This document shows, piece by piece, positions 3,417 through 9,634 of a stretch of DNA of 18,000 nt. The notes beneath the pieces were generated by a model. It was not told the DNA's origin. It was given only the letters and a program-made list of their open reading frames with translations, and did no database searches. The DNA is from Candidatus Heimdallarchaeota archaeon (lineage in GTDB: Archaea > Asgardarchaeota > Heimdallarchaeia > Heimdallarchaeales > Heimdallarchaeaceae), in NCBI GenBank assembly GCA_016839945.1, contig JAEOTE010000011.1:1-18000 (forward strand), given 5' to 3'. The position numbers and the translations under genes were made by a program. Each line of letters opens with the position of its first letter. The stretch's first letter is position 1.

Positions 3417-3524
3417 GAGGACAATGCTAGGTGAATATGAAACAATTAAATAGCAATTTTTTAATATCCCTACAGATAAGTAGGTGCGCTGTCCTCTTGA
3501 GAAAAGTTTTACAGGTGATAAAAT
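3417..3524 (+). promoter_or_regulatory. Structured thrS 5' leader (candidate cis-regulatory RNA)
   Basis: GAGGACA (3417-3423) is complementary to TGTCCTC (3490-3496); internal hairpin CCTAC-AGATAA-GTAGG; three AGGTG copies; contains a uORF. Confidence 0.55.
3424..3453 (+). CDS. Putative thrS leader peptide MLGEYETIK
   Basis: ATG CTA GGT GAA TAT GAA ACA ATT AAA TAG, 7 nt from the predicted transcript start. Mirrors the leuS uORF in length and in position of the cognate codon. Confidence 0.4.
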   Translation: MLGEYETIK

Positions 3525-5442
3525 GGTCAAAGTAGTTTTACCAGATGAAAGTATAATAGATGTTCCTAAAGGAAAAACTGTATATGAAATAGCACAACAA
3601 ATCAGTCAAGGTTTAGCTGATGCTGCAATCGCTGCCAAAATTGACGGGAAATTAGTAGACTTACATTATGTGATAGAAGAAGATGTGAAACTCGAAATTC
3701 TAACTAACAAATCAGAAGAAGCATTACACGTCTTAAATCACAGTGCAGCTCATATAATGGCTGGAGCGGTTGTTGATCTATTTCCAGATGCAAAACCAAC
3801 CATAGGACCAAGTATAGATCCTGTTGGGTTTTACTATGATTTCTATGTTGAAGAACCATTCACTCAAGAGGACTTAGAACGAATTCAGAAAAGAGTAGAA
3901 GAAATAATACTAGAAGACACTGAATTTATTAGAGAAGAAATGTCTTTATCTGAAGCCATTAAACATTATGAGAAAGAAGACATAAATAAGTTCAAAGTAG
4001 AAATTCTAAAGGAAACAGAAGAGAAAGAAATATCCTTCTATTCCCATGGAGATGGGGCCTTCAAAGATTTATGTCGTGGACCACATTTACCAACAACCAA
4101 AAAAGTTAAAGCTGTAAAAATCTTAAACGCTTCTTCTGCATTCTGGCGAGCTGATGCTGCTAGAGAATCATTACAACGAGTTTATGGTGTAGCATTTTTC
4201 ACTTCTAAAGAACTGAAAAAGCACATTAATATGCTTGAAGAAGCAAAGAAAAGAGATCATCGCATCCTTGGGAGACAGCTTGATTTGTTTGATACAGCTG
4301 ATGAATGGGGACCAGGTATGCCTATAATCTACCCTAAAGGAAGAGCTATTCTAGAAGTTATGAGAGATTTCTGGAATAAAGAACATGAGAAAGCTGGATA
4401 TGATTTAGTTCAAACTCCTCATGTCTATAAAGAAATTGTTTGGCAAACCAGCGGTCATACTGACTACTATATTGAAAATATGTTCCCAATTAATTTACAA
4501 GGTGAAAAATGGTTTGTTAAACCCATGAATTGCCCCGGACACATGCTAATCTTCAATCGTCGAACTTACTCATATAGGGAACTTCCTGTTCGAATTGGAG
4601 AAATGGGAACTGTTTACCGTAACGAACTTTCAGGAGTACTACACGGATTATTCAGAATTCAAAGTATAACTCAAGATGATGCTCATCTATTCATGCTACC
4701 AGATCAGTTGGAAGATGAGATTGTAGGTGTCATTGAAATGGTCAATCATTTCTACAAAGTCTTTGGTTTTACTGATTGGGAATTTTTCATCAGTACAAAA
4801 CCAGAAAGGGCAATTGGTACTGAAGAAGGATGGAATCATGCAATAGATTCTCTTAAGAATGCTTTAGTTAGAGCAGGACAACAATACAAGATTAAAGAGG
4901 GTGAAGGAGTATTCTATGGTCCAAAGATTGATGTTGATGTAAAAGATGCAATAGGAAGAAGATGGCAACTTGCAACTATTCAAGTTGATTTTAACCTTCC
5001 AGACAGATTTGATATCAATTACATTGGTGAAGATGGACAGAAACACAGACCATATGTTATTCATCGAGTAATCTATGGAGCAACCGAAAGATTCCTTGCT
5101 ATACTCGTAGAACATTATGCAGGAAAATTACCTGTCTGGTTAAGTCCAACTCAAGCAATAATCATTCCAATAACTGACAACCAAATTGAATATGCAAAGA
5201 AGGTTTCACACGAATTAAAACAAGCAGGTATAAGAGCAGAACCAGATCTTAGTGGAGACAGAATGGAATACAAAATAAGACATGCTACAATGCAAAAAAT
5301 CCCTTACATAATCAATGTAGGAGAAAAAGAAGTTGAATCTAAAAATATAGCTGTAAGATCACGAGGAAATAAGGTTGAATTTGGTGTGAACATTCGGGAT
5401 TTCATTAGAAAAGTACTAAAAGAAATTGGAGAATATAAATAA
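3523..5442 (+). CDS. thrS: Threonine--tRNA ligase, bacterial/eukaryal type (TGS + editing + class II core + anticodon-binding domain), 639 aa
   Basis: TGS N-terminus, editing motifs NHSAAH and DLCRGPH, RDHR, KPMNCPGH, YRNE.SG.LHGL.R, QDDAH, FYGPKID, IHR, ERF, P.WLSP.Q. Start moved from GTG 3484 to ATG 3523 because AGGTG lies 5 nt upstream and homology begins at MVKVVLPD. Confidence 0.97.
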   Translation: MVKVVLPDESIIDVPKGKTVYEIAQQISQGLADAAIAAKIDGKLVDLHYVIEEDVKLEILTNKSEEALHVLNHSAAHIMAGAVVDLFPDAKPTIGPSIDPVGFYYDFYVEEPFTQEDLERIQKRVEEIILEDTEFIREEMSLSEAIKHYEKEDINKFKVEILKETEEKEISFYSHGDGAFKDLCRGPHLPTTKKVKAVKILNASSAFWRADAARESLQRVYGVAFFTSKELKKHINMLEEAKKRDHRILGRQLDLFDTADEWGPGMPIIYPKGRAILEVMRDFWNKEHEKAGYDLVQTPHVYKEIVWQTSGHTDYYIENMFPINLQGEKWFVKPMNCPGHMLIFNRRTYSYRELPVRIGEMGTVYRNELSGVLHGLFRIQSITQDDAHLFMLPDQLEDEIVGVIEMVNHFYKVFGFTDWEFFISTKPERAIGTEEGWNHAIDSLKNALVRAGQQYKIKEGEGVFYGPKIDVDVKDAIGRRWQLATIQVDFNLPDRFDINYIGEDGQKHRPYVIHRVIYGATERFLAILVEHYAGKLPVWLSPTQAIIIPITDNQIEYAKKVSHELKQAGIRAEPDLSGDRMEYKIRHATMQKIPYIINVGEKEVESKNIAVRSRGNKVEFGVNIRDFIRKVLKEIGEYK

Positions 5443-6465: not shown

Positions 6466-9399
6466 TTACTCTAACAGTAAGGCAGGTTTCATAGGTCGAG
6501 CTTTTTGTGATTTATTTTGTGGGTCATATATGTCTTTACGGTCTGAGAGGTGTATTAGGATTTCTGCATTCTCATATTTAGTGCTAATGAACTCTTTAAA
6601 TCCAAGAATTGCATTTTCTTGGTTTTTCGCACTTAATGTTTCAATTCTGAAAATTGTAGGATCTTTAAACATCAATTTTACTTCGTTAGCTATTTCACTC
6701 ATATAGTTGTTTAATTTTGCACTTTCCTTAGCTGATGCCATGATTTTACCTATTTGCACTGCTTCATTTTCGAAGATAGTTTTTGCTAATTCATATAGTT
6801 CGTTCTTCCAATCAGCATTAACATAGATGTGAATCTTCTTTGGTTTGGTTTTTACTAATTTCACAATCTGATCGATGTCTTCTATAAGATCAGTCATGTA
6901 TTTTGCTTGTAGCGCATATAGTAAATCCTTATCACTAACATCAATATCAGGAATCTGTTTCAGAGAAATGTAATCCTTATTTCCCATTCTTTCGTTCAAT
7001 TCTTCACAAATATGTGGGATAGCAGGAGCCATTGTTACTACCATCATTTCGATTACTTCTTGAAGTGCAGTTTTCTTTTCCATTTCTGGTAAGTGTTTAG
7101 CAAACTTATGATATTCATCAATTGCTCTTATGTTCGAATAATAACCTTCCAAGATGTATTCTCTAGCACTGAATCTTTCAATTGATTCCATTGCTTTTAT
7201 TAGATTTGTTTTTACAGATGCAATGAATACTTTTGATAGAAATGAAAATTCAATTTTCTCTTTATTTGATACATTGATTACACTCAAACTGTATTCCCAG
7301 AACTTTCTCAACCTTTGAAGTGCGAAGTTCACTTCATCTTCTTTCCACTCAAGAACAGTTTCAGGTGTGGCGATGGACGCTAGATGTAATCTTGTTACAT
7401 CAACACTATATTTGTTGGGAACCTGTGCAATTGGAATTACATTTGGTTTACTCTTACTCATCGCTTCTCCATCACGACTTAACATTTCGTTCAATGAAAA
7501 AGCTGGTAACCAATATTTCTCTGGGAAAACTGCAGTATGATGAAATATAGCAAACGATAAGTGATTGGAAATATGATGCACAGCTGTATGTCTAAGATCA
7601 TTAGGATACCAGTATTCAAATTCTTGTTTCATCTGATTGATTGTTTGCTCTGTTATTCCTGAATTCTTTACTAAATCTTTGATATTGCCTTTGGATAAAA
7701 ACACATAATCAAATAATTCTGGCTTTAATTGTTCTGGTTTCAATTTATTTTCCTTTATGTGTCTGACTATTGTATAGTATGCCATATAAATAACTGAATC
7801 ACTTAATGATTCTATTATCCAACCTTCACCTTCTGTAAAAGGAAATTCTGTCCCTAATCCTCTTCTTCTTACACAAGGTCTCTTATCTAACCAATCAAAG
7901 GTATTTTCAAAGCTTAATCTATATTTATCTGGAGTAATGAGCATCTGATTTAATGCTTTAGATGCTTTCTCTTTCCATTCGGGATTTCCATAGTTCAGGA
8001 AATATTGATTCTGAATTATTGCTACGATGATTTGACCTCCACATCTGCAAAAAGCTTTTGTTGAGGGTTCGTAGATTGGTGAGGCTAAGTTTATTTCAAA
8101 TAATGTATCTGCGACTTTGTTCTTGGCTTCTTCTACTTTCAGCCCTACATAATCTCCCGTATTACTTTTCATAATCCCTGAATAGTATTCATCCTTGTAA
8201 ATTGTCTGTGTTGCTTCCTCTAATTTATCTCTATCTTCTTGAGATTTCACCCCTAGCTTCTGACATATTTCAACTGCTGGGAATTCTCCATAACCTTTTA
8301 CATCTATAAGAGAAATTGGTTCAATTTCCTTCAAGTTTTCTGAATTTAGATTGTACTTAGCAATTGTTTCTTCATCTTTTTGTAAGTCAGCAATAGCTGC
8401 ATGATCATATGGAGCATGTCCTGGAACACTATAAACAATTCCTGTAGCATGATCTGTATCAACAAATATAGCAGGATATACAGGTATTTTCCTTCCTGTT
8501 ATTGGAACTTCTGCATATACATCTAATAGCTCATCACCTTTCAATTCACGTTTTATTTCAATCTCATGATTCTGTTCTAATAGCTTCATGGTGGCTTCTT
8601 TAGATACAATCCATATCTCTCCATCAATTGAGATTTCATTGTAGGTTGCATTTGGATGTATCCATACATTAGTAGCACCGAATATTGTTTCTGGACGAAG
8701 TGTTGCAGCAACAAGAAAGACATCATTATCAAGTTTAAATTTAATTCCAACAAATTCATTAACTTCTACATTAAGCTCGTCCCCATCTTGAATATCATCC
8801 TCACCAACAGCATTCTTATCATTTACACACCATAAAATAGGATAATCTCCTTGTGTTATCAGCCCTTTGTTATTGAGTATTGAGTATTGCCACTTGATGA
8901 ATTTGTTATACTCAGGATCTCCTGTTGTAAATTCCCTAGTTGTATCAAGTGAATATCCCATTCCCAGGAAATCTTGGATTATTTTCTCTGCAAAGTAATT
9001 AGCAACATTTTCTGGTTCTGAAAAAGAAGAGACTACCTTTTCAATTCCTTCTTTGGTACTCTCGTAATATGAGATAAAACCTCTCATCTTTTTCCATTCG
9101 TTTTCATCGTTATTCTTAATTTTCCACGATACTGCGAGTACTGGAGTTCCAGTAATATGAAATCCCATTGGCCATAGAACGTTGTATCCTTTTTGTCTCT
9201 TGAATCTCGCAAATATGTCACCTAAACCATAAGTTCTAGCGTGTCCAACATGAAGAGGAGAAGTTGCATAAGGATAAGATACTGTCAAAAACCACTTGGG
9301 TCTTGAGCTGTCAATATTCGCGACAAAAATTTCATCATTTTGCCATTTCTTTTGCCATTTTTTCTCTATTTTTCGTATTTCATCTAGAAAAGACACCAT
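6466..9399 (-). CDS. leuS: Leucine--tRNA ligase, archaeal/eukaryal type
   Basis: HIGH motif as LHVGH, GFHITGTP, CP1 editing motifs ATLRPETIFGATN and TGIVYSVPGHAPYD, CRCGG, IESLSDS.IYMAYYT, F.YWYP.D.R, KMSKS as AMSKS, archaeal C-terminus KARPMKPA. SD GGAG 6 nt upstream. Confidence 0.97.
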   Translation of the reverse strand: MVSFLDEIRKIEKKWQKKWQNDEIFVANIDSSRPKWFLTVSYPYATSPLHVGHARTYGLGDIFARFKRQKGYNVLWPMGFHITGTPVLAVSWKIKNNDENEWKKMRGFISYYESTKEGIEKVVSSFSEPENVANYFAEKIIQDFLGMGYSLDTTREFTTGDPEYNKFIKWQYSILNNKGLITQGDYPILWCVNDKNAVGEDDIQDGDELNVEVNEFVGIKFKLDNDVFLVAATLRPETIFGATNVWIHPNATYNEISIDGEIWIVSKEATMKLLEQNHEIEIKRELKGDELLDVYAEVPITGRKIPVYPAIFVDTDHATGIVYSVPGHAPYDHAAIADLQKDEETIAKYNLNSENLKEIEPISLIDVKGYGEFPAVEICQKLGVKSQEDRDKLEEATQTIYKDEYYSGIMKSNTGDYVGLKVEEAKNKVADTLFEINLASPIYEPSTKAFCRCGGQIIVAIIQNQYFLNYGNPEWKEKASKALNQMLITPDKYRLSFENTFDWLDKRPCVRRRGLGTEFPFTEGEGWIIESLSDSVIYMAYYTIVRHIKENKLKPEQLKPELFDYVFLSKGNIKDLVKNSGITEQTINQMKQEFEYWYPNDLRHTAVHHISNHLSFAIFHHTAVFPEKYWLPAFSLNEMLSRDGEAMSKSKPNVIPIAQVPNKYSVDVTRLHLASIATPETVLEWKEDEVNFALQRLRKFWEYSLSVINVSNKEKIEFSFLSKVFIASVKTNLIKAMESIERFSAREYILEGYYSNIRAIDEYHKFAKHLPEMEKKTALQEVIEMMVVTMAPAIPHICEELNERMGNKDYISLKQIPDIDVSDKDLLYALQAKYMTDLIEDIDQIVKLVKTKPKKIHIYVNADWKNELYELAKTIFENEAVQIGKIMASAKESAKLNNYMSEIANEVKLMFKDPTIFRIETLSAKNQENAILGFKEFISTKYENAEILIHLSDRKDIYDPQNKSQKARPMKPALLLE

Positions 9400-9597
9400 T
9401 TACATCTCCTTGAATTATGTTTTTCTCTTGTTCTGAAACAGCTTATGTAATTACGTTTTGAAAAACTAAAATAACTAATAAAAGAATTGTCTTCTGACAT
9501 TATAAAGCTGTTAAAGATGTAAGAAACCTGGAAACCACTAAAACAGATAGCCTTCTTATTTTGGAAGAAGAACACGATACCCCATTTTGGTTTCCTC
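9400..9597 (-). promoter_or_regulatory. Structured leuS 5' leader of about 198 nt (candidate cis-regulatory RNA)
   Basis: Helices GGAAACCA/TGGTTTCC (9595-9588 with 9537-9530), CTTCTT/AAGAAG, TTACATCTTT/GGAGATGTAA (9522-9513 with 9409-9400) and AACAGCTT/AAGCTGTT (9512-9505 with 9444-9437). Confidence 0.65.
9556..9585 (-). CDS. Putative leuS leader peptide MGYRVLLPK (tandem CTT Leu codons)
   Basis: ATG GGG TAT CGT GTT CTT CTT CCA AAA TAA, with GAGG SD 8 nt upstream. Confidence 0.5.
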   Translation of the reverse strand: MGYRVLLPK

Positions 9598-9618
9598 AAA
9601 TTTTAGGTATTTTACGTA

Positions 9619-9634
9619 CTTATTAACTTTTTTG
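9619..9634 (-). promoter_or_regulatory. Putative BRE/TATA promoter of leuS; predicted transcription start near G9597
   Basis: Minus strand CAAAAAAG-TTAATAAG; the TATA box begins 29 nt before GAGGAAACC. Confidence 0.55.

What the first reader, a model, noticed from the sequence alone, without database searches (positions are those of the whole stretch)
9384..9599. A Leu-free +1 frame spans the whole leuS leader, entered via a slippery GUU-CUU-CUU-C site
Seen: the 71-codon ORF in the track (9599-9384) is the +1 frame of the uORF. It opens right at the predicted transcript start, has no stop and no Leu codon for 68 consecutive codons, and ends 16 nt inside leuS (its only internal Leu lies within the overlap). 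By my rough estimate at about 30% GC, Leu codons are about 12% of random sense codons, so 68 Leu-free codons has a chance near 1e-4 even given that the ORF exists. Its TTG lies just outside the predicted transcript, so entry would more likely be by frameshift. Established: prfB +1 frameshifting uses a P-site CUU, a slowly decoded A-site codon and an upstream internal SD (AGG GGG UAU CUU UGA). Here the uORF reads AUG GGG UAU CGU GUU CUU CUU C, and tRNA-Leu(GAG) could re-pair from CUU to UUC. Inference: low Leu-tRNA causes a +1 slip; the ribosome then crosses the leader without needing Leu, melts the SD-hiding helix and terminates beside the leuS AUG for coupled re-initiation. The SD-to-shift spacing is longer than in prfB.
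Basis: partly seen in the sequence, partly recalled or inferred. Interest (0 to 1): 0.82.

Follow-up and report, generated by a model that had tools for sequence, protein, structure and literature searches.

The report
Frameshift leucine sensor before Asgard leuS
In most Asgard archaea, a tiny upstream reading frame before the leucyl-tRNA synthetase gene seems built to make the ribosome slip one base at a leucine codon when charged leucine-tRNA is scarce and then run on to the gene's start, an undescribed way of sensing amino-acid supply that is reused with other codons before other synthetase genes.

Summary
Confirmed and much broader than reported. The window is a Heimdallarchaeaceae (Asgard) leuS locus. 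A 9-codon uORF (9585-9556) carries the cassette RTG-RGG-DAT-NRY-NTT-CTH. I found it before 80 of 94 Asgard leuS genes (27 genera) and before none of 61 other archaeal leuS loci. The +1 frame stays open to the leuS start in 76/80 (-1 frame 5/80; about 6 expected). It often has no start codon of its own and shows no protein-like constraint.

The same cassette with an Ile, Thr, Met or Pro codon precedes ileS, thrS, metS and proS. Best model: the P-site tRNA on GUU slips to UUC while a hungry Leu codon waits, and shifted ribosomes cross the leader and switch leuS on (three genomes fuse the frame to leuS).

Leu is depleted about twofold, not absent (12/80 Leu-free). SD hiding by the leader is not general. 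No experiment shows frameshifting. Cultured P. syntrophicum MK-D1 and Ca. L. ossiferum carry the cassette. This scan noted the system before on other genomes (e1-5550161, e1-5512573). I found no paper describing it.

The parts
9620..9631 (-). BRE/TATA-like promoter box; predicted transcript start near 9597
   Evidence: Sequence; conserved TTAATAA block in genus alignment; TATA-like boxes cluster 37-43 nt before the uORF start across leaders; start site inferred
9589..9597 (-). SD for the uORF (GAGG) and 5' arm of the stem that closes over the uORF
   Evidence: AGGA conserved in genus alignment; pairs with 9537-9530 in nearly all of 17 leaders, with compensatory A-U/G-C changes
9556..9585 (-). 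uORF MGYRVLLPK plus stop
   Evidence: uORFs of 5-14 codons at the same place in 80 Asgard leuS leaders
9579..9583 (-). internal SD-like GGGGU, aligned spacing 6 nt before the P-site codon
   Evidence: G at -8 in 75/80 and at -7 in 72/80; variants GAGG, GGUGA and AGGAUG keep 6-7 nt; anti-SD GAUCACCUCCU present in this genome; role inferred
9564..9573 (-). proposed +1 shift site: P-site GUU (9573-9571), hungry A-site CUU (9570-9568), second CUU (9567-9565); re-pairing at UUC, new A-site UUC
   Evidence: P codon GTT 68, TTT 6, CTT 3, ATT 3; A codon CTT 40, CTC 31, CTA 9; new A codon never a stop and Leu only once in 80
9384..9572 (-). open, Leu-poor +1 frame that crosses the leader and ends at TAG 16 nt inside leuS
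9530..9537 (-). 3' arm of the 5' stem
9422..9526 (-). second genus-conserved helix (arms 9526-9507 and 9442-9422), U-rich; ends about 12-15 nt before the leuS SD
   Evidence: consensus fold; whole-leader MFE not better than shuffles (z -0.61)
9406..9410 (-). leuS SD (AGGAG), predicted paired with early leuS codons in a small local hairpin
6466..9399 (-). leuS, archaeal-type leucyl-tRNA synthetase, 977 aa (regulated gene)
3424..3535 (+). sister cassette before thrS: uORF MLGEYETIK (3424-3453), site GAA-ACA, Thr-free +1 frame ending at TAG 3533-3535 over thrS ATG 3523

Best explanation
The leuS leader is a tRNA-charging sensor that works by programmed +1 frameshifting at a hungry sense codon. 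A ribosome starts the uORF (shown: ORF, SD, conservation). At codon 4-6 the peptidyl-tRNA sits on NUU and the A site holds a Leu codon. With plenty of Leu-tRNA it reads through and stops a few codons later, about 160 nt before leuS, too far for re-initiation (inferred). With little Leu-tRNA the A site stays empty, and the P-site tRNA, perhaps held by the SD-like element, re-pairs from GUU to UUC, keeping positions 2 and 3 paired. A Phe, Ser or Tyr tRNA then fixes the +1 frame (inferred). That frame is kept free of stops and poor in Leu (shown), so the ribosome crosses the leader and ends on or next to the leuS start, or in three genomes runs straight into LeuRS (shown). This raises leuS expression (inferred), most likely by termination-reinitiation with local unfolding of the start region, possibly also by shielding the U-rich leader from aCPSF1/FttA termination. 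The act of translation matters, not the peptide. The cassette is reprogrammed by changing the A-site codon at ileS, thrS, metS and proS.
For: Cassette before 80/94 Asgard leuS genes in 27 genera, 0/61 other archaeal leuS loci. +1 frame open to within 12 nt of the start in 76/80, against 5/80 for the other frame and 5.9 expected; 27/27 taking one per genus, 3.9 expected. No start codon for that frame in 41/80, and an in-frame stop within 6 codons upstream in 54/80. Substitutions are flat across codon positions (0.13/0.12/0.14; syn/non 117/290) unlike leuS itself (297/41). Leu is the most depleted residue (64 vs 124 expected, z -5.7; next -1.7; CUU 2 vs 24). A matrix trained on leuS context and blind to the P2/P3 and A-site bases lands on an Ile codon in 14/15 high-scoring ileS leaders. 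Cognate sites with an open +1 frame: ileS 17/20, thrS 6/6, proS 15/15; non-cognate sites 0/4. The P codon tracks the A codon: NUU before Leu and Pro codons, mostly NAA before Ile, Thr and Met codons. In-frame fusions in G026, G036 and G070 point to activation. TeRe in archaea needs overlap or under about 20 nt (PMC10666635).
Against: No ribosome, peptide or reporter data. GUU to UUC leaves a first-position mismatch, weaker than prfB's CUU-U. SD spacing (6-7 nt) matches initiation in this genome (mode 7-8), not the 3 nt known to stimulate +1 shifts (PMC5009743). Site rules were written after seeing the data, and kin are not independent. Leu is also mildly low (about 0.75) in ileS and proS +1 frames, so part of the depletion is background. 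The output step is unresolved: SD occlusion by the leader is not general.
Confidence: 0.8

Rival explanations
1. Same frameshift sensor, but the output is transcriptional or RNA stability: ribosomes crossing the U-rich leader block aCPSF1/FttA cleavage, and re-initiation is incidental. This is a variant of the best model and can act together with it.
For: U4 tracts 23/kb vs A4 11/kb in the leaders, like post-stop terminator regions (22 vs 14) and unlike ordinary upstream regions (16 vs 19). FttA prefers U-rich RNA, and ribosome exclusion is proposed (PMC11616081). No general SD occlusion by the leader.
Against: U richness may come from avoiding stop and Leu codons. In MK-D1 and L. ossiferum the SD is buried by leader sequence. 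In-frame fusions make LeuRS directly.
Confidence: 0.3
2. Ribosome-stalling attenuator without frameshift: a stall on the Leu codon keeps the 5' stem open and changes downstream folding. The open +1 frame is a by-product, as in E. coli pheL.
For: A conserved 5' stem with compensatory changes encloses the uORF in this genus. pheL frameshifting is incidental (PMC5009743). One Lokiarchaeia family has Leu-rich uORFs instead.
Against: Does not explain 76/80 open +1 frames in leaders of unrelated sequence and length (about 58-311 nt), cognate depletion in that frame, P-codon matching to the next base, or single-Leu uORFs.
Confidence: 0.1
3. The +1 ORF is a separately initiated small protein or coupling ORF, not entered by frameshift.
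For: In this genome a TTG (9599) and a GTG (9575) lie in the +1 frame, the GTG 4 nt after GGGG; the peptide looks similar within the genus.
Against: 41/80 have no start codon, and 54/80 have a stop within 6 codons upstream; no third-position bias; no peptide similarity between families.
Confidence: 0.04
4. Frameshifted ribosomes repress leuS by running over its start, or the shift is constitutive and only sets a basal level.
For: Most +1 frames end after the start and out of frame.
Against: Repressing LeuRS when Leu-tRNA is low is the wrong logic; fusions in three genomes yield LeuRS from the shift; a constitutive shift would not need a cognate codon that changes with each synthetase.
Confidence: 0.05

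Closest known systems
Bacterial prfB (RF2) autoregulatory +1 frameshift (PMC5009743)
   Same: +1 shift early in translation at a slowly decoded A-site codon; P-site NUU-type re-pairing; SD-like element upstream; feedback on the product that decodes the slow codon. The three fusion cases have prfB-like architecture.
   Different: A-site is a sense codon for the synthetase's own amino acid, not UGA; P codon mostly GUU, not CUU; SD spacing 6-7 nt, not 3; usually in a uORF whose shifted frame is not the protein; reused at five synthetases; archaeal.
Ketolide-induced frameshift in the ermC leader ORF (PMC5009743)
   Same: Frameshift in a uORF lets ribosomes translate the spacer and switch on the downstream gene.
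   Different: The trigger is an antibiotic, not tRNA charging; here there is a conserved cognate codon and cognate depletion.
Hungry-codon frameshifting (Gallant) and yeast Ty1 CUU-AGG-C (PMC5009743)
   Same: +1 slip when the A-site aminoacyl-tRNA is limiting.
   Different: The 2016 review knows no natural starvation-specific use; Ty1 uses a constitutively rare tRNA. Here selection appears to use the slip as a sensor.
Leader-peptide attenuators (his, trp, pheST; E. coli pheL) and T-box riboswitches
   Same: Sense tRNA charging through a cognate codon in the leader of synthetase genes; one codon sets specificity (own knowledge).
   Different: One cognate codon suffices; no hairpin terminator; no Rfam match; requires an open alternative frame.

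Membership tests
prfB-type programmed +1 frameshift | Stop codon (UGA) in the A site | tested here: not met
   A-site codon is CTT, CTC or CTA in 80/80 (required by the search rule); uORF stop is further on, directly after the Leu codon in 1/80
prfB-type programmed +1 frameshift | P-site CUU-U re-pairing | tested here: not met
   P codon GTT 68, TTT 6, CTT 3, ATT 3
prfB-type programmed +1 frameshift | Internal SD 3 nt before the shift codon | tested here: not met
   SD-like element conserved, but 6-7 nt aligned spacing; 3 nt per PMC5009743
prfB-type programmed +1 frameshift | Shifted frame encodes the regulated protein | tested here: not met
   True in 3/80 only; not in this genome
Programmed ribosomal frameshift (general) | Conserved shift site with a conserved open alternative frame | tested here: met
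Programmed ribosomal frameshift (general) | Measured frameshifting or trans-frame peptide | not testable with these tools
   No ribosome profiling or proteomics available
ermC-type uORF frameshift induction | Shifted frame spans the spacer to the downstream start | tested here: met
   76/80
ermC-type uORF frameshift induction | Leader structure sequesters the downstream SD | tested here: inconclusive
   Not general; yes in MK-D1 and L. ossiferum, local hairpin only here
Classical leader-peptide attenuator | Run of cognate codons plus terminator/antiterminator hairpins | tested here: not met
   41/80 have no second adjacent Leu; no intrinsic terminator found here
T-box riboswitch | Rfam T-box stem I and antiterminator | tested here: not met
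   No Rfam hit at gathering score in the window

The most novel reading that the evidence does not exclude
A third general way, after attenuators and T-boxes, to match aminoacyl-tRNA synthetase levels to tRNA charging: a modular uORF cassette in which one hungry cognate codon triggers a +1 frameshift that licenses the downstream gene. It is widespread in Asgard archaea and would be the first natural, selected use of hungry-codon frameshifting as a nutrient sensor.
Probability: 0.75. Interest if true: 0.92.

Novelty: new variant of a known kind. Interest (0 to 1): 0.86.

Why it matters
How archaea tune their aminoacyl-tRNA synthetases is not covered by the T-box or attenuator literature I could search, and the standard frameshifting review lists no natural, productive use of starvation-induced hungry-codon frameshifting (PMC5009743). 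A phylum-wide, codon-programmable frameshift sensor in the closest archaeal relatives of eukaryotes would answer both points. It would add uORF-based amino-acid sensing to the Asgard repertoire. It is directly testable: two cultured strains, P. syntrophicum MK-D1 and Ca. L. ossiferum B35, carry the leuS cassette, and the element is short enough for reporters in model archaea.

Tried and rejected
Rfam scan: no family. Sigma-70 promoter and terminator scan: nothing above chance. Whole-leader folding: not unusual (z -0.61). General SD occlusion by the leader: not supported (that control keeps the local SD/CDS hairpin, so it tests only the leader's added effect). Strict Leu-free frame and conserved length mod 3: rejected. 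Protein-level conservation of the +1 peptide: rejected. A -2 slip into the same frame: rejected, because the -2 codon is R-Y-G (GUG, GCG, ACG, AUG) with no common pairing. Polymerase slippage: unlikely, no long homopolymer at the site. First SD-score rule picked wrong sites in five leaders and was replaced. Alignment A1 mixed orientations and was discarded; the oriented alignment is. No cassette seen at valS, lysS, argS, asnS, aspS, hisS, alaS, cysS, gluS, pheS or the two PF00579 synthetases in this genome. Nine paper searches found no description of the system; most subscription papers are outside the library.

Full report
Setting. The window holds thrS (3523-5442, +) and leuS (9399-6466, -). 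Close LeuRS relatives are titled Candidatus Heimdallarchaeota, including AB_125 at 78% in the same genus, so this is a Heimdallarchaeaceae (Asgard) genome. There is no Rfam hit.

Observation. The ORF 9599-9384 is the +1 frame of a 9-codon uORF (ATG 9585), lacks Leu in codons 2-69 and ends 16 nt inside leuS. In 200,000 dinucleotide shuffles 0.7% were open, 0.03% Leu-free and none both. For the 56 codons a shifted ribosome would read before the leuS start, P(open)=0.018 and P(no Leu | open)=0.001.

Conservation. I pulled leuS leaders from the genus, order, class and 20 further genomes of the phylum. A sequence-only rule (start codon, SD-like GG, NTT then CTN, uORF of at most 16 codons) finds a site in 80 of 94 leaders with enough upstream DNA, in 27 genera. 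The rule was written after inspection, so its hit rate is descriptive; the frame test does not use the rule's bases. The +1 frame is open to within 12 nt of the leuS start or beyond in 76/80, the other frame in 5/80, and shuffles predict 5.9. One per genus gives 27/27 against 3.9 expected. Site-to-start distances range from about 58 to 311 nt and leaders are unalignable between families, so shared ancestry of the spacer does not explain this, though kin still inflate any p-value. The commonest endings are the 4-nt RTGA overlap (20) and +8 (16); short overlaps are partly expected once a frame passes the start. None of 61 other leuS loci, mostly Methanobacteriaceae and Methanosarcina plus a few DPANN and Njordarchaeia, has the site; that sample is narrow.

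The site. The consensus is RTG-RGG-DAT-NRY-NTT-CTH. The P codon is GTT in 68, the A codon CTT 40, CTC 31, CTA 9, never CTG, and the new +1 A-site codon is Phe, Ser or Tyr, Leu once, never a stop. Only 39/80 have a second Leu, and CUC or CUA cannot re-pair one base on. So the general event must be NUU in the P site moving to UUC while the Leu codon is empty. The SD-like element lies 6-7 nt (aligned) before the P codon, like initiation spacing in this genome and unlike the 3 nt of prfB (PMC5009743). It may hold or pause the ribosome rather than push it; that is inference.

Entry and product. The +1 frame has no start codon in 41/80 and an in-frame stop within six codons upstream in 54/80, often the TGA inside ATGA. 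Substitutions are flat over codon positions in three genera while leuS shows the usual third-position excess. So openness is selected and the peptide is not. Leu is the most depleted residue (223 vs 497; one per genus 64 vs 124, z -5.7; CUU 2 vs 24), but only 12/80 frames are Leu-free. Leu is also at about 0.75 of expectation in ileS and proS frames, so some of the deficit is background. Ile is depleted in ileS frames (21 vs 43) and not in leuS frames.

A family of cassettes. In this genome the same layout precedes thrS (GAA-ACA), ileS (GAA-AUU), metS (GAA-AUG) and proS (GUU-CCG). Each has an open +1 frame ending over the start and no cognate residue; only the Leu case is individually unlikely. 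A matrix trained on leuS context, blind to the sensing codon, lands on an Ile codon in 14 of 15 high-scoring ileS leaders. Cognate sites have an open +1 frame in 17/20 ileS, 6/6 thrS and 15/15 proS leaders; four non-cognate sites are all closed. The P codon changes with the next base so that positions 2 and 3 stay paired after the slip. This co-variation is the strongest argument for frameshifting.

Output. In G026, G036 and G070 the +1 frame is fused to LeuRS. In G070 the usual ATG position reads ATA, so LeuRS there may depend on the shift; this is one fragmented MAG with two leuS copies and could be an error. Fusions argue for activation. How activation works in the rest is open. Termination-reinitiation in archaea needs an overlap or under about 20 nt (PMC10666635), which fits the +1 stop and excludes the uORF stop about 160 nt upstream. 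In this genus a 5' stem encloses the uORF and a second helix ends before the SD. Across 37 leaders the spacer does not make the start harder to open than shuffles. Here the SD pairs with early leuS codons, under the terminating ribosome; in G119 and G116 it is buried by leader sequence just past the uORF. Leaders are U-tract-rich like terminator regions, so protection from FttA/aCPSF1 (PMC11616081) is a live alternative.

Testability. G119 and G116 have single contigs of 4,324,194 and 6,035,313 bp, the published sizes of P. syntrophicum MK-D1 (PMC11316595) and Ca. L. ossiferum B35 (PMC9834061). Both carry the cassette (UUU-CUC).

Comparison. It works like prfB in the shift step and like ketolide-induced ermC leader frameshifting in the output step (PMC5009743), but fails the defining tests for prfB, attenuators and T-boxes. 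The review knows no natural use of hungry-codon shifting and treats pheL shifting as incidental. Nine searches found no paper on this system. Earlier scan notes on other genomes reached the same reading; they are not independent evidence, and the numbers above are my own.

Verdict. A real, phylum-wide regulatory element; frameshift sensing is likely (0.8) but unproven, and the output step is unresolved.

Noticed in passing
L086-L088, L097, L098 (family f19, about 150-230 nt before leuS): These leuS leaders lack the frameshift cassette but carry a 25-30 codon uORF ending in a Leu-rich run (for example LLAVLLL), like a classical attenuator leader peptide: a second, different Leu sensor in Asgard archaea.
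   Followed up: partly
window 9494-9476 (- strand): A mid-leader motif (AAGATAAC-like followed by TTTTAAT) is conserved in the genus, including four genomes (L014, L019, L020, L025) whose leuS has no uORF. It may be a second, internal promoter giving basal leuS expression.
   Followed up: no
L007 (G011) leuS leader: The promoter and uORF are missing; the upstream gene's end joins the leader at a repeated GATATCTGTTT. Either a real deletion or an assembly collapse.
   Followed up: no
L065 (G070) leuS 5' end: The +1 frame is fused to LeuRS and the usual start position reads ATA, so LeuRS may be made only by frameshifting, as with prfB.
   Followed up: partly
L043 (G021 second leuS), L065/L066 (G070): Two genomes hold two divergent leuS genes. 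In G021 only the divergent copy has the cassette; in G070 both do.
   Followed up: no
own genome C62 metS leader (L101): The metS cassette (GAA-AUG) has no ATG start for its uORF; it would need a TTG, GTG or CAG-adjacent start, and the sensing AUG could itself act as a start. Orthologs not checked.
   Followed up: no
own genome C57 (- strand, about 4785 from the contig's far end) and C48 (- strand, about 6264): Cassette-like uORFs with a 29-codon open +1 frame overlap the starts of a 301-aa gene (UUU-UUU site) and a 261-aa gene (AAA-ACU site); may be chance.
   Followed up: no
L115, L119 (ileS leaders): P codon is UUU before the Ile codon (slip to UUA) instead of NAA, with the +1 frame still open: a variant re-pairing.
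   Followed up: no
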